A DNA stretch of 55,514 nucleotides from Candidatus Levyibacteriota bacterium. Lineage in GTDB: Bacteria > Patescibacteriota > Microgenomatia > Levybacterales > UBA12049. Location: positions 1 through 55,514 of the forward strand of contig CAWBPM010000001.1 of the NCBI GenBank assembly GCA_963790825.1, given 5' to 3'. Position numbers and translations under genes: made by a program. Positions 2,633 to 3,406 of this stretch are shown piece by piece; position 1 is the stretch's first letter, and every line of letters starts with the position of its first letter. The notes under the pieces were generated by a model. That model was given only the letters and a program-made list of their open reading frames with translations, ran no database searches and was not told the DNA's origin.

Positions 2633-3406
2633 ATGAAATATTTACAACTTACTTTTATTTTCCTAGCGTTTACTTTTTTTGGATTTTCTTTACTTTGTAA
2701 AGTCTTCGCCCAAGATGTTTCTCTTGGAACTGCTACCAGCTTACCCATCAAAGGAACCGTTCATGATGGAGATATTATTAGCTCTTTTAATAACAGCTAT
2801 ACTCCGACTAATACTGCGTATGATCCGCTAATGGTTGGTATTGTCAGTTTGAATCCGGCAGTATTACTCTATGACCGGAATGATAAAAATAGTAAACCTG
2901 TTATATCAACCGGCAAGGCTTATGTACGAGTAGATACTGGGAATGGTCCGATTCATGTCGGTGATTTGATTACCAGTTCCCAGACTCCAGGTGTTGGACA
3001 GAAAGCCACGGAAAACGGTTATGTTATCGGCACTTCTGAAGAAGACTATACACCGTCAAACCCACACAAAATCGGGACAGTGTTGGTTTCGATTAATCCT
3101 CATTTTGGACAGCTCTCAAATAACCTTGTTCATAATTTGTTTAATAGTCTTAGATTCGGTATCTCCTCTGCTTTTATTTCACCACTTGGGGCACTTAGGT
3201 ATTTTGTCTCGGCATTTATTGCATTGGTCTCATTTCTAATTGGCTTCCTCTTTTTCGGCAGAGTATCAAGGTCAGGAGTCGAGTCAATCGGCAGAAACCC
3301 ATTAGCAGGGAAGCTCATTATCTTTAGCGTTATCTTAAATGTGATCCTGACTTTGGCAATTATGGTTTTCGGTGTTGCGATTGCCTATCTTATTCTTGTA
3401 CTATGA
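2633..3406 (+). CDS. Secreted/membrane protein: signal peptide, ~190-aa extracytoplasmic beta-rich domain, C-terminal two-helix hairpin resembling ATP synthase subunit c but lacking any membrane Asp/Glu
   Basis: The ORF-track frame 2570..3406 starts at a TTG. The ATG at 2633 gives [26 protein letters not shown], a typical signal peptide. The C-terminus [67 protein letters not shown] has an R-N-P polar loop between two hydrophobic helices. The gene lies directly upstream of the atpF-like gene. Confidence 0.75.

What the first reader, a model, noticed from the sequence alone, without database searches (positions are those of the whole stretch)
2633..3406. The gene in the atpE slot encodes a c-subunit-like hairpin with no membrane carboxylate, fused to a secreted domain, and no atpB lies in the cluster
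Canonical F-type operons run atpB(a)-atpE(c)-atpF-atpH-atpA-atpG-atpD-atpC. Here the cluster starts with this 257-aa gene, followed by b, delta, alpha, gamma, beta and epsilon. Upstream there is only a 545-nt spacer and a divergent gene. The last ~70 aa form two hydrophobic helices joined by [16 protein letters not shown]. This resembles the conserved c-subunit polar loop (A/G-R-Q/N-P) and its flanks. However, neither helix contains Asp or Glu. About 17-18 residues after the loop Pro, where c subunits carry the ion-binding carboxylate, this protein has Thr-Leu, with an Asn one turn earlier. The signal peptide and ~190-aa N-terminal domain would lie outside the cell, which fits the N-out topology of c subunits. 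Possible explanations are a non-translocating rotor or stator anchor, a repurposed F1 complex, or canonical a and c genes located elsewhere.
Basis: partly seen in the sequence, partly recalled or inferred. Interest (0 to 1): 0.65.

Follow-up and report, generated by a model that had tools for sequence, protein, structure and literature searches.

The report
Proton-blind F1 ATPase with fibre-domain rotor subunit
This ultrasmall (Levybacteria/CPR) bacterium has a normal ATP synthase elsewhere in its genome. It also has this second, ATP-burning F1 motor, whose membrane subunit is a c-subunit relic with no ion-binding acid and a phage-fibre folding domain on the outside, so the motor probably does mechanical work on giant surface fibres rather than making ATP.

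Summary
Gene 2633-3406 encodes a signal peptide, a roughly 130-aa beta domain, a linker helix and a C-terminal helical hairpin. The hairpin loop ([11 protein letters not shown]) is homologous to the F-type c-subunit loop at profile level. The carboxylate position (+18 after the loop Pro) is Leu here and is never Asp or Glu in 196 relatives.

The gene heads an operon of b-like, delta, alpha, gamma, beta and a short epsilon, with no subunit a. A complete canonical atpBEFHAGDC operon lies on another contig, so this is a second, paralogous set. Its beta is 40% identical to the genome's canonical beta. In a tree, the 65 betas of this kind fall on one side of a fully supported branch (100/100), apart from the canonical CPR betas and E. 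coli atpD. All catalytic residues are conserved.

The layout is conserved across Patescibacteria. In 73 of 75 loci the F1 genes follow the fusion gene, and in 64 of 74 a giant MerR-HTH/TM fibre gene lies divergently upstream. Seventeen of 53 carrier genomes lack a canonical c; seven of these were checked, and they also lack subunit a and any second alpha/beta pair. Nine loci lack b and delta.

The outer domain has the phi29 gp12 autochaperone (Peptidase_G2) fold and is homologous to a module inside the fibres.

Best reading: an ion-blind, ATP-hydrolysing F1-like machine coupled to the surface fibres. The closest analogue is the mycoplasma "F1-like X0" ATPases.

The parts
2570..2598 (+). Promoter-like site (TTGACA-17-TATGAT, 11 of 12 matches) 35 nt upstream of the fusion gene's ATG
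   Evidence: sequence. Consensus match only, not shown to be functional.
2633..3406 (+). Fusion gene ('cfus', 257 aa): signal peptide (aa 1-26, ...KVFA|QD), Peptidase_G2/phi29-gp12-autochaperone-like beta domain (aa ~30-160), linker helix (aa 165-182), c-subunit-derived hairpin (aa 184-256) without a carboxylate
2720..3112 (+). Extracytoplasmic beta domain of cfus. It is homologous to a module in the giant fibres and has the fold of phage pre-neck-appendage autochaperones and capsid decoration proteins.
   Evidence: BLASTP to fibre aa 1022-1133: 32% identity, E 5e-11. Foldseek PDB hit 3gqh/3suc, E 2e-4. BFVD 'preneck appendage protein', E 1e-11. Profile hits inside ORFs of 1000-6600 aa.
3182..3403 (+). 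c-like hairpin. Loop GRNP is at 3290-3301. Asn236 is at 3338-3340, Thr240 at 3350-3352, and Leu241 at 3353-3355, where c subunits carry Glu or Asp.
   Evidence: Profile against PDB: the top three hits are c subunits. hhalign against canonical c: Prob 92-95%. Position +18 is never D or E in 196 relatives.
3475..4185 (+). Diverged b subunit (236 aa; N-terminal TM helix, coiled coil, C-terminal delta-binding-like region)
   Evidence: No Pfam hit. Family profile against canonical b profile: hhalign Prob 95% over the C-terminal 56 columns. Present in 65 of 82 loci.
4157..4693 (+). delta (OSCP) subunit, 178 aa
   Evidence: PF00213, E 7.7e-8
4699..6273 (+). alpha-like subunit, 524 aa. Walker A and the Arg finger are kept; the N-terminal delta-binding segment is shortened.
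6279..7151 (+). gamma subunit, 290 aa
   Evidence: PF00231, E 1e-22
7153..8544 (+). beta-like catalytic subunit, 463 aa. Walker [16 protein letters not shown] and the Walker B Asp are all kept.
8537..8839 (+). Short epsilon, 100 aa: N-terminal beta sandwich only, no C-terminal inhibitory helices
   Evidence: PF02823 only. The canonical epsilon of the same genome is 139 aa.
1..2088 (-). Divergent giant surface-fibre gene (N-terminal MerR-type HTH; runs off the window). It is the conserved divergent neighbour of the operon.
   Evidence: PF00376/PF13411. A divergent fibre gene lies upstream in 64 of 74 loci.
49433..49777 (+). Module inside the 1646-aa fibre gene (46373-51313) that is homologous to the cfus outer domain. 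It is preceded by a Peptidase_G2 match and a GADFAEYF motif.
8980..9210 (+). Small stand-alone MerR/HTH_17 protein just downstream of epsilon; possibly associated with the system
   Evidence: Found after epsilon in 15 loci. Its role was not tested.

Best explanation
The cluster encodes an ion-blind, ATP-hydrolysing F1-like machine that is paralogous to the genome's real ATP synthase.

Shown:
- alpha3beta3-type subunits with every catalytic residue intact, plus gamma, an epsilon reduced to its rotor-foot domain, delta and a diverged b.
- No subunit a.
- A first gene whose product is a c-subunit-derived hairpin. It keeps the cytoplasmic R-N-P loop, has a hydrophobic residue at the carboxylate position, and carries an exported domain homologous to the autochaperone (Peptidase_G2-type) module of the neighbouring giant fibres.

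Inferred:
- The hairpins assemble into the membrane foot (a ring or a smaller bundle) to which gamma/epsilon dock through the conserved loop (the part that contacts gamma/epsilon in canonical enzymes).
- With no carboxylate and no a subunit, nothing can be translocated, so the enzyme runs only as an ATPase.
- The torque or conformational change of gamma/epsilon passes through the hairpin assembly to its outer crown. The crown then acts on the giant HTH-TM fibres, by holding, turning, tensioning, assembling or releasing them.

The logic matches the mycoplasma F1-like X0 ATPases, which power surface functions.
For: 1. Hairpin ancestry. The hairpin profile's best three PDB hits are ATP synthase c subunits (E 0.0025, 0.019, 0.51). 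PF00137 hits 4 of 15 relatives (best E 0.0037). hhalign against canonical c subunits gives Prob 95% and 92%. Some JGI records name members COG0636 c subunit.

2. Loss of the ion site. Position +18 is I/V/A/L/G/F in 196 of 196 distinct relatives, and there is no acid in TM1. The alignments place Leu241 opposite the c-subunit Glu.

3. Operon membership. 73 of 75 loci have alpha-gamma-beta-epsilon downstream on the same strand. There is a promoter-like site upstream and no terminator-like site before b.

4. An active F1 under selection. The beta Walker A Lys, the catalytic Glu/Arg and the Walker B Asp are kept in 65 of 65; the alpha Arg finger in 71 of 71. The epsilon lacks its inhibitory C-terminal domain.

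5. A distinct paralogue. Identity to the genome's own canonical subunits is 40% (beta) and 38% (alpha). The 65 betas of this kind lie on one side of a 100/100 branch, apart from canonical CPR betas and E. coli atpD.

6. It works without Fo. 17 of 53 carrier genomes lack a canonical c. Seven that were checked have one alpha/beta pair and no PF00119 a; one of them is a single-contig genome. A complete Woesebacteria genome has only cfus-alpha-gamma-beta-epsilon.

7. Link to the fibres. A divergent MerR-HTH fibre gene lies upstream in 64 of 74 loci. The outer domain is homologous to a fibre module that carries a Peptidase_G2 match. The fold matches the phi29 gp12 autochaperone. When cfus and the ATPase are separated, cfus stays beside a fibre gene in L007 and L079; in G045 the large neighbouring ORFs were not characterised.

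8. Precedent. Mycoplasma Type 2/3 F1-like X0 ATPases lack a, c, b and delta. They include a subunit with a signal peptide, an ectodomain and two C-terminal TM helices, encoded just upstream of alpha-like, and they serve surface machinery (PMC3369863, PMC12994834).
Against: - No direct evidence of assembly, stoichiometry, rotation or ATPase activity. No multimer model could be run.
- PF00137 does not reach its threshold on any member, and the profile similarity covers mainly the loop and its flanks (30-47 columns).
- TM1 lacks the GxGxGxG packing motif of c rings (it is Phe-rich). The outer domain belongs to a fold that is trimeric in phages (phi29 gp12-type domain: PMC13317679). A c-type ring is therefore not assured.
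- With no a subunit, it is unclear what the single-TM b stalk is braced against. Nine loci have no stalk at all.
- A few genomes place cfus away from the ATPase: G045 (58 kb away), L079 (about 21 kb away) and L007 (no ATPase within the 20.8-kb locus).
- The link to the fibres rests on synteny and domain homology only.
- A conserved polar pair in TM2 (N or H at +13, T at +17) is unexplained and could mark a function not considered here.
Confidence: 0.6

Rival explanations
1. Fibre export or assembly ATPase rather than a rotary actuator. In this reading the F1-like hexamer with gamma works like the FliI6-FliJ export ATPase. It would energise membrane insertion, folding or autoprocessing of the giant fibres through a cfus platform, and the cfus autochaperone-like domains would template fibre trimerisation outside the cell, where no ATP is available.
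For: The outer domain has the fold of the phi29 gp12 auto-chaperone, which drives trimer assembly of the spike (PMC13317679). The fibre module carries a Peptidase_G2 autoproteolysis match. F1 alpha/beta are related to FliI/SctN, which appear among the lower NCBIfam hits. The stalk-less variants look less like a stator-rotor machine.
Against: Gamma plus an epsilon foot domain and a c-like loop are the parts of a rotor coupling, not of an export gate. No translocon-like protein is conserved in the cluster. The fibres are N-in signal-anchored proteins that Sec/YidC could handle. Most loci keep the b-delta stalk.
Confidence: 0.15
2. cfus belongs functionally to the fibres only, as a membrane anchor or chaperone, and its place at the head of the ATPase operon reflects co-regulation. 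The F1-like complex would then be a peripheral ATPase with another partner, or would use the canonical Fo where one exists.
For: cfus stays next to a fibre gene when separated from the ATPase in L007 and L079, and lies 58 kb from the ATPase operon in G045. Long variants of cfus have the same HTH-TM N-terminus as the fibres. PF00137 is below threshold.
Against: The invariant R-N-P loop and profile-level c homology have no reason to persist in a mere anchor. Synteny holds in 73 of 75 loci. In the seven genomes checked that lack a canonical c there is also no subunit a, and no other conserved membrane protein lies in the cluster, so the F1-like complex would have no other membrane partner.
Confidence: 0.1
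3. It is still an ion-translocating F-type enzyme with unorthodox chemistry. The conserved Asn/His (+13) and Thr (+17) of TM2 would form a carboxylate-free binding site, and an unrecognised protein would replace subunit a.
For: Asn or His at +13 in 196 of 196 relatives and Thr at +17 in 166 of 196 lie on one helix face. Most loci keep b and delta, that is, a stator.
Against: No known rotary ATPase works without a ring carboxylate. No a subunit (PF00119) is present in seven genomes that have only this cluster. No further membrane protein is conserved in the cluster. Epsilon has lost its hydrolysis-inhibiting domain. Some lineages dropped the stator altogether.
Confidence: 0.06
4. cfus is a minor subunit that inserts into the canonical c ring, as the carboxylate-poor c1 does in the Acetobacterium woodii ring, and so tags the real ATP synthase rotor with an outer domain.
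For: This genome and 35 other sampled carriers have both cfus and a canonical c. The A. woodii c1/c2 subunits are among the best PDB matches.
Against: Seventeen carriers have no canonical c at all. cfus is encoded with its own complete F1 set, far from the canonical operon. Its TM1 lacks the glycine packing motif needed to fit a canonical ring.
Confidence: 0.04

Closest known systems
Mycoplasma 'F1-like X0' ATPases: Type 3 (MSC_0618-0624 / MMCAP2_0575-0581, needed for the MIB-MIP antibody-cleavage system) and Type 2 (Mycoplasma mobile gliding motor)
   Same: Both are an extra alpha/beta/gamma/epsilon set beside, or instead of, the real ATP synthase, with no a and no c. The alpha N-terminal helix is shortened. 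Both are predicted to run as ATPases and are genetically tied to large surface proteins. Both include a subunit with a signal peptide, an ectodomain and two C-terminal TM helices joined by a short loop, with no charged residues in the membrane, encoded directly upstream of alpha-like (PMC3369863, PMC12994834). The stalk-less CPR variant (cfus-alpha-gamma-beta-epsilon) is especially close in layout.
   Different: The origin is independent. The window's alpha and beta score best with the canonical atpA/atpD models, score lower with MSC_0618/0619 and the glide models, and fall below those models' cut-offs. Most CPR loci keep b and delta. There is no 12-TM protein and no small cytoplasmic protein. 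The CPR hairpin is recognisably c-derived, whereas the mycoplasma proteins were reported as not homologous to any Fo subunit. The partner is a phage-fibre-like protein, not MIB-MIP or the Gli proteins. No sequence similarity to any NCBIfam model was found for cfus.
Canonical bacterial F1Fo ATP synthase (atpBEFHAGDC); subunit c (AtpE, PF00137)
   Same: Gene order c-b-delta-alpha-gamma-beta-epsilon. Beta still passes the TIGR01039 cut-off (479 against 463 bits). All catalytic residues are kept. The hairpin has the same N-out/C-out topology and the same R-N-P loop.
   Different: No subunit a. No ring carboxylate. No GxGxGxG in TM1. A 160-aa exported domain sits on the N-terminus. Epsilon lacks its C-terminal domain. 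The betas of this kind are separated from the canonical ones by a branch of 1.5 changes per site. The cluster coexists with a true F1Fo operon in the same genome.
Acetobacterium woodii hybrid c ring (c1 subunit with a lost carboxylate; PDB 4BEM)
   Same: It is an F-type c-family hairpin that has lost an ion site. It is among the top PDB matches of the hairpin profile.
   Different: There, only one hairpin of one subunit in a mixed ring is silent and the ring still translocates Na+. Here, every copy lacks the site and there is no a subunit.
Bacteriophage phi29 gp12 pre-neck appendage C-terminal auto-chaperone (PDB 3GQH/3SUC; Pfam Peptidase_G2 PF11962) and related phage capsid decoration proteins
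   Same: The fold of the cfus outer domain. The homologous module in the neighbouring fibre passes PF11962 (26.9 against 25 bits).
   Different: cfus itself does not hit PF11962. It begins right after the signal peptide, without the upstream GADFAEYF-type stretch seen in the fibre. It is membrane-anchored by a c-like hairpin instead of ending a fibre.
N-ATPase (alternate F1Fo, atpDCQRBEFAG)
   Same: It is a second, divergent F-type operon beside the main one.
   Different: N-ATPases keep a and an ion-binding c and have AtpQ/AtpR and a different gene order. The window's alpha and beta are far below the TIGR03324/TIGR03305 cut-offs.

Membership tests
F-type ATP synthase subunit c (AtpE, PF00137) | Sequence match to PF00137 at or above the gathering score (24 bits) | tested here: not met
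   No hit at E<=1 on the full protein and none at E<=10 on the hairpin (member 1). Only 4 of 15 relatives hit, best E 0.0037.
F-type ATP synthase subunit c (AtpE, PF00137) | Helical hairpin, N-out/C-out, with a cytoplasmic R-[NQ]-P loop; remote homology to c subunits | tested here: met
   AF2 hairpin 184-219 / 223-256. GRNP is invariant. The profile's top three PDB hits are c subunits. hhalign Prob 92-95%.
F-type ATP synthase subunit c (AtpE, PF00137) | Ion-binding Asp or Glu in the middle of TM2 (+18 after the loop Pro) | tested here: not met
   Leu241 in the window. I/V/A/L/G/F in 196 of 196 relatives. Aligned opposite the Glu of canonical c.
F-type ATP synthase subunit c (AtpE, PF00137) | Glycine packing motif (GxGxGxG) in TM1 | tested here: not met
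   TM1 reads ...[17 protein letters not shown]. The canonical c subunits of the same class read GAIGPGIGIG.
Canonical F1Fo ATP synthase | Subunits alpha, beta, gamma, delta, epsilon and b encoded together | tested here: met
   Pfam/NCBIfam hits. b supported by profile-profile comparison.
Canonical F1Fo ATP synthase | Subunit a (PF00119) that forms the ion path with the c ring | tested here: not met
   None in the cluster. The only PF00119 gene of the genome sits in the other operon on C2. None at all in seven relatives that have only this cluster.
Mycoplasma F1-like X0 ATPases (Types 2/3) | Alpha/beta/gamma/epsilon paralogues without a and c, tied to surface proteins | tested here: met
Mycoplasma F1-like X0 ATPases (Types 2/3) | Match to the family models (NF045934 MSC_0618_beta, NF045936 MSC_0619_alpha, glide MMOB1660/1670) above cut-off | tested here: not met
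   382 against 570 bits, 255 against 520, 349 against 600 and 347 against 850. The canonical atpD/atpA models score higher.
Mycoplasma F1-like X0 ATPases (Types 2/3) | No b or delta; a 12-TM 'Protein 1' and a small cytoplasmic 'Protein 2' | tested here: not met
   b and delta are present here and in most loci. No 12-TM or comparable conserved gene is in the cluster. Nine loci do lack b and delta.
Mycoplasma F1-like X0 ATPases (Types 2/3) | 'Protein 5': signal peptide, ectodomain and two C-terminal TM helices, encoded upstream of alpha-like | tested here: inconclusive
   The architecture is the same. No sequence similarity was seen in NCBIfam. The mycoplasma sequences could not be fetched for a direct profile or fold comparison.
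Peptidase_G2 / phi29 gp12 C-terminal auto-chaperone domain | Fold and homology of the domain core | tested here: met
   Foldseek hits to 3gqh/3suc and to BFVD pre-neck appendage proteins. BLASTP E 5e-11 to a fibre module that adjoins and overlaps that fibre's PF11962 match.
Peptidase_G2 / phi29 gp12 C-terminal auto-chaperone domain | Autoproteolytic cleavage site at the N-terminal edge of the domain | tested here: inconclusive
   The fibre has GADFAEYF just before the module and cfus has nothing comparable. That this D-x-x-E stretch is the cleavage/catalytic motif is my recollection of MEROPS G2 and was not checked with a tool.
N-ATPase (alternate F1Fo) | Match to the TIGR03305/TIGR03324 cut-offs; AtpQ/AtpR; own a and c | tested here: not met
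   409 against 752 bits and 375 against 750 bits. No such genes are in the cluster.

The most novel reading that the evidence does not exclude
Patescibacteria possess a trans-membrane torque transmitter. A cytoplasmic F1 motor turns an ion-blind, c-derived ring with no a subunit. The ring's extracellular crown of fibre-autochaperone domains grips or turns the giant HTH-anchored surface fibres. Cytoplasmic ATP would then drive movement, tension or release of host-contact fibres outside the cell. On this reading the machine also explains the enigmatic two-TM 'Protein 5' of the mycoplasma F1-like X0 ATPases as a c-type rotor relic.
Probability: 0.3. Interest if true: 0.92.

Novelty: new variant of a known kind. 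Interest (0 to 1): 0.8.

Why it matters
1. Annotation and physiology. These genes are routinely called "F0F1 ATP synthase" (beta passes the atpD cut-off). Yet in about a third of sampled carriers (17 of 53) no canonical c is found; in the seven checked it is the only F-type alpha/beta set and no subunit a exists, so the complex cannot couple to an ion gradient. Energy budgets inferred for many CPR genomes, such as "has ATP synthase, can use or make a proton-motive force", would be wrong.

2. Rotary-motor biology. Béven et al. [quoted passage not shown] This would be a second, independently evolved equivalent. It retains b, delta and a visible c relic, so it shows step by step how an ATP synthase can be turned into a mechanical ATPase.

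3. CPR cell biology. It ties an ATP-driven engine to the giant phage-fibre-like surface proteins that probably mediate host contact in these episymbionts. That makes the question of how cells with minimal genomes power surface machinery directly testable: express the seven genes, test ATPase activity and ion pumping, then image.

Tried and rejected
- Direct Pfam and NCBIfam scans of the fusion protein found nothing. Only profiles built from the family reveal the c relation.
- No multimer modelling is available, so ring versus trimer and docking to gamma/epsilon could not be tested.
- The metagenome contig behind L007 (stand-alone cfus) is not held, so I could not tell whether that organism has the ATPase elsewhere.
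- I could not fetch the mycoplasma 'Protein 5' sequences (MSC_0620, MMCAP2_0577, MMOB1650) for a direct comparison.
- Other conserved neighbours were considered as candidate parts and rejected as housekeeping or lineage-specific: iPGM between cfus and b, LeuRS, GalT, NDK, peptidase M16 and a Fic-HTH gene.
- N-ATPase membership and mycoplasma Type 2/3 membership were rejected on NCBIfam scores.
- The idea that the canonical a/c on C2 complete this cluster was rejected, because they sit in a full operon with their own F1 and because relatives lack them entirely.
- My own in-box hhalign runs printed identical Prob and E-values for two different comparisons. I therefore repeated the c comparison with the session's tool (Prob 92%, E 6e-7) and treat these E-values as approximate.
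Full report
WHAT IS THERE. 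The window's first 9 kb carry, on the plus strand, seven tightly spaced genes:
- 2633-3406: a 257-aa protein, here called cfus
- 3475-4185: 236 aa, one N-terminal TM helix and a long coiled coil
- 4157-4693: delta, PF00213
- 4699-6273: alpha
- 6279-7151: gamma
- 7153-8544: beta
- 8537-8839: a 100-aa epsilon holding only the N-terminal beta-sandwich domain

Upstream lie a 544-nt AT-rich spacer and a divergent gene (1-2088, minus strand) that starts with a MerR-type HTH. A near-consensus sigma-70-type promoter (TTGACA-17-TATGAT) sits at 2570-2598. No terminator-like hairpin lies on the plus strand between cfus and the next gene. The database gene call for cfus (274 aa) and the TTG at 2570 are probably too long, because homologues align from the ATG at 2633.

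The AF2 model has mean pLDDT 81, about 90 in the beta domain. It shows a beta domain (aa 31-159), a linker helix (165-182) and a hairpin (184-219 / 223-256). The hairpin loop is [16 protein letters not shown]. Neither helix contains Asp or Glu. Counting from the loop Pro, +13 is Asn236, +17 is Thr240 and +18 is Leu241.

IS THE HAIRPIN A c SUBUNIT?
- The direct test is negative. PF00137 and all NCBIfam models miss the protein, and PF00137 also misses the isolated hairpin.
- Family-level tests are positive. A profile of 15 hairpins finds ATP synthase c subunits as its three best PDB matches (E 0.0025, 0.019 and 0.51). The alignments run in register through the loop and TM2.
- PF00137 hits four of the 15 relatives (best E 0.0037).
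- Profile-profile comparison with canonical c subunits from the same bacterial class gives Prob 95% and 92%, E 6e-7.
- Several JGI records name members COG0636 c subunit.
- The canonical c subunits of this class read ...EAIGRNPEA... and cfus relatives read ...EAIGRNPLA....
- In every alignment the c-subunit Glu faces Leu241, which is Ile, Val, Ala, Leu, Gly or Phe in relatives. Among 196 distinct relatives none has Asp or Glu at +18, and none has an acid in TM1. Ten have a Glu at +7, at the membrane edge.
- The glycine packing motif of TM1 is gone.

I read the hairpin as c-derived but no longer a c subunit in the functional sense.

A SECOND, PARALOGOUS SET. The genome (1.46 Mb, 4 contigs, 95.6% complete) has exactly one PF00137 gene above the family cut-off and one PF00119 gene. 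Both lie on contig C2, inside a complete atpB-E-F-H-A-G-D-C operon. That operon has a normal c (…GFAEALAIY…) and a full-length epsilon of 139 aa.

The window's beta and alpha are only 40% and 38% identical to those canonical copies. The window's beta is 44-63% identical, in six-frame searches, to betas that follow cfus in other orders. In a maximum-likelihood tree, 65 such betas lie on one side of a 100/100 branch. A total branch length of about 1.5 changes per site separates them from five canonical CPR betas, which group with E. coli atpD.

The paralogue is not decaying:
- Walker A GGAGVGKT, the GERxRE catalytic segment and the Walker B Asp are kept in 65 of 65 betas.
- The Arg finger and the Walker A Lys are kept in 71 of 71 alphas.
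- The 236-aa protein is a diverged b. Its family profile matches a canonical b profile over the C-terminal 56 columns (Prob 95%).
- The alpha N-terminus ahead of the beta barrel is about 13 residues throughout these loci, against 27 in E. coli.

CONSERVATION AND DISTRIBUTION. cfus has at least 971 relatives in the 90%-clustered protein collection. In the 50%-clustered library, 623 clusters carry the hairpin, always at the C-terminus.

Among GTDB species representatives, 397 stretches encode a relative. In the 84 related loci I could read:
- 73 of the 75 with enough downstream sequence have alpha-gamma-beta-epsilon on the same strand.
- 64 of the 74 with enough upstream sequence have a divergent MerR-HTH fibre gene.

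In 151 sampled genomes of the same class:
- 53 have a full-length cfus.
- 36 of those also have a canonical c, and 17 do not.
- 45 have only a canonical c.
- 53 have neither.

Seven of the "cfus only" genomes were checked. Each has a single alpha/beta pair (in G069 and G017 only the beta match passed the E-value limit of the search), no PF00137 match and no PF00119 match above cut-off. One of them is a single-contig genome rated 99% complete. Three genomes with both sets have a normal a. Phylum-wide, 40 of 401 sampled genomes carry cfus, and 28 of them lie outside this class.

Variants:
- Nine loci, including a complete Woesebacteria chromosome whose only beta is this one, have cfus-alpha-gamma-beta-epsilon with no b or delta.
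- About ten loci have a phosphoglycerate mutase gene inserted after cfus.
- In G045, cfus lies 58 kb from the ATPase operon, beside large ORFs that I did not characterise. In L079 about 21 kb separate them. In L007, cfus stands beside fibre genes with no ATPase within the 20.8-kb locus.
- A long form of cfus (420-590 aa) replaces the signal peptide with one or two cytoplasmic HTH domains and a TM anchor. That is the N-terminal design of the fibres themselves.

THE OUTER DOMAIN. Foldseek places it with the phi29 gp12 C-terminal fragment (3gqh, 3suc) and phage capsid decoration or cement proteins in the PDB (E about 1e-4). In BFVD it matches "preneck appendage protein" models and tail fibres (E down to 2e-11). 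The gp12 domain is a trimeric auto-chaperone (Xiang et al. 2009, as cited in PMC13317679).

The cfus profile also hits, through its N-domain only, modules inside ORFs of 1000-6600 aa in many genomes, including three in this genome. Against the window's 1646-aa fibre, BLASTP gives 32% identity over 116 residues, E 5e-11. That fibre passes Pfam Peptidase_G2 (IMC autoproteolytic cleavage domain) at aa 986-1057. The sequence GADFAEYF lies just before the shared module, and cfus has no counterpart to it. That this D-x-x-E stretch is the cleavage/catalytic motif is my recollection, not a tested result.

HOW IT MOST LIKELY WORKS.

Shown:
- An F1 set with intact catalytic chemistry.
- An epsilon reduced to the domain that in canonical enzymes contacts the c ring and gamma (established knowledge of F-ATPases).
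- A c-derived hairpin whose cytoplasmic loop is invariant.
- No carboxylate and no a subunit.
- Persistence in genomes that have no other Fo parts.
- A fixed genomic partnership with giant fibres that share the hairpin protein's outer domain.

Inferred:
- cfus copies form the membrane foot on which gamma/epsilon sit.
- The enzyme can only hydrolyse ATP. Loss of the epsilon inhibitory helices fits this.
- The motion of gamma/epsilon is passed through the hairpins to the outer crown, which engages the fibres.

I cannot say whether the output is continuous rotation, a limited twist, or a folding or release cycle on the fibre's autochaperone module. I also cannot say whether the foot is a c-type ring or a trimer-based bundle. 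I put 0.6 on the overall statement. The sub-claims are roughly 0.85 for "c-derived and part of this ATPase", 0.8 for "not ion-coupled" and 0.45 for "acts mechanically on the fibres". Rivals are listed separately.

COMPARISON WITH WHAT IS KNOWN. The closest known systems are the mycoplasma F1-like X0 ATPases.
- Béven et al. 2012 (PMC3369863) described seven-gene clusters with alpha-, beta-, gamma- and epsilon-like proteins, no a, c, b or delta, and two membrane proteins.
[quoted passage not shown] - Berlureau et al. 2026 (PMC12994834) showed that the Type 3 enzyme is required for the surface MIB-MIP system and co-purifies with it. The Type 2 enzyme is the M. mobile gliding motor.

The CPR cluster shares the logic and the signal peptide-ectodomain-hairpin subunit placed before alpha. 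It is not a member of those families: NCBIfam scores are below cut-off and lower than for canonical atpA/atpD. It also keeps b, delta and a recognisable c relic, lacks the 12-TM protein, and partners with phage-fibre-like proteins.

Full-text searches found no paper combining F1-like, ATPase and Patescibacteria. [quoted passage not shown] Its supplementary figures were not readable here.

EARLIER NOTES OF THIS SCAN. After most of this work I looked up earlier notes. Follow-up agents reached essentially the same reading for the same kind of operon in at least 12 other genomes. These are AI notes, not independent evidence. I re-derived the shared claims here. I add four things:
- the coexisting canonical operon in this genome
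- the beta tree
- the a/c-free genomes
- the stalk-less variant and the mycoplasma "Protein 5" parallel

VERDICT. The feature is real, strongly conserved and not ordinary. It is a proton-blind F1-like ATPase with a c-derived, fibre-domain-bearing membrane subunit. It is best filed as a new variant of the "F1-like X0" kind. The mechanism of output is unresolved.

Noticed in passing
window 8980-9210 (+); L074 17970-18230: A small stand-alone MerR/HTH_17 protein lies just after epsilon. It recurs downstream of the operon in 15 loci. It is 76% identical overall to the copy in a Woesebacteria genome, and nearly identical over the 55-aa HTH core, although the betas of the two genomes are only about 54% identical. 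Its HTH resembles the N-terminal HTH of the fibres.
   Followed up: partly
P0168, P0179, P0182, P0195, P0230, P0243: A long form of the fusion protein (420-590 aa) replaces the signal peptide with one or two cytoplasmic HTH domains, a disordered stretch and a TM anchor. This is the same N-terminal design as the giant fibres. The autochaperone-like domain and the carboxylate-less hairpin follow it.
   Followed up: partly
window 3338-3340 and 3350-3352 (Asn236, Thr240): TM2 keeps a polar pair on one helix face: +13 is Asn (182) or His (14) in all 196 relatives, and +17 is Thr in 166. No explanation was tested. Ring packing, a lipid or ion contact, or a contact with b are all possible.
   Followed up: no
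window 46373-51313 (1646-aa fibre), aa 986-1140: The Peptidase_G2 autoproteolysis domain lies in the middle of the fibre, with about 500 residues after it, not at the C-terminus as in phi29 gp12. GADFAEYF precedes the shared module. The N-terminus carries two integrase SAM-like domains.
   Followed up: partly
L009-L060, between the fibre gene and cfus (e.g. L013 8900-9859, L016 4607-5560): 27 Levybacteria-type loci carry a ~317-aa Fic-domain protein with a C-terminal winged HTH between the fibre gene and cfus (downstream of the operon in a few loci). The HPFxxGNGR motif is intact in some and degenerate in others. It is absent from this window's 544-nt spacer.
   Followed up: partly
L034, L046, L048, L056, L063, L065, L069, L084, L085, L119: In Woesebacteria-like loci a housekeeping gene, cofactor-independent phosphoglycerate mutase, is inserted between cfus and b. 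In many of these loci leucyl-tRNA synthetase follows epsilon.
   Followed up: partly
G000 contig C2 ~93.3-99.5 kb (L004 5296-11475): The genome's canonical atp operon has an unusually short delta (119 aa) and a c gene with a long, probably mis-called N-terminal extension.
   Followed up: no
alpha genes of all related loci: The alpha N-terminal segment that binds delta in canonical enzymes is about 13-14 residues in these loci, against 27 in E. coli. This holds both in loci that keep b and delta and in loci that lost them. The mycoplasma alpha-like subunit was likewise reported to lack this helix.
   Followed up: partly
record titles of L009-L088: Many public MAG records that hold this Patescibacteria-specific operon are titled 'uncultured Gammaproteobacteria', 'Pseudomonadales', 'Sulfotelmatobacter' or 'Acidiferrales'. 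These are probably mislabelled submissions.
   Followed up: no
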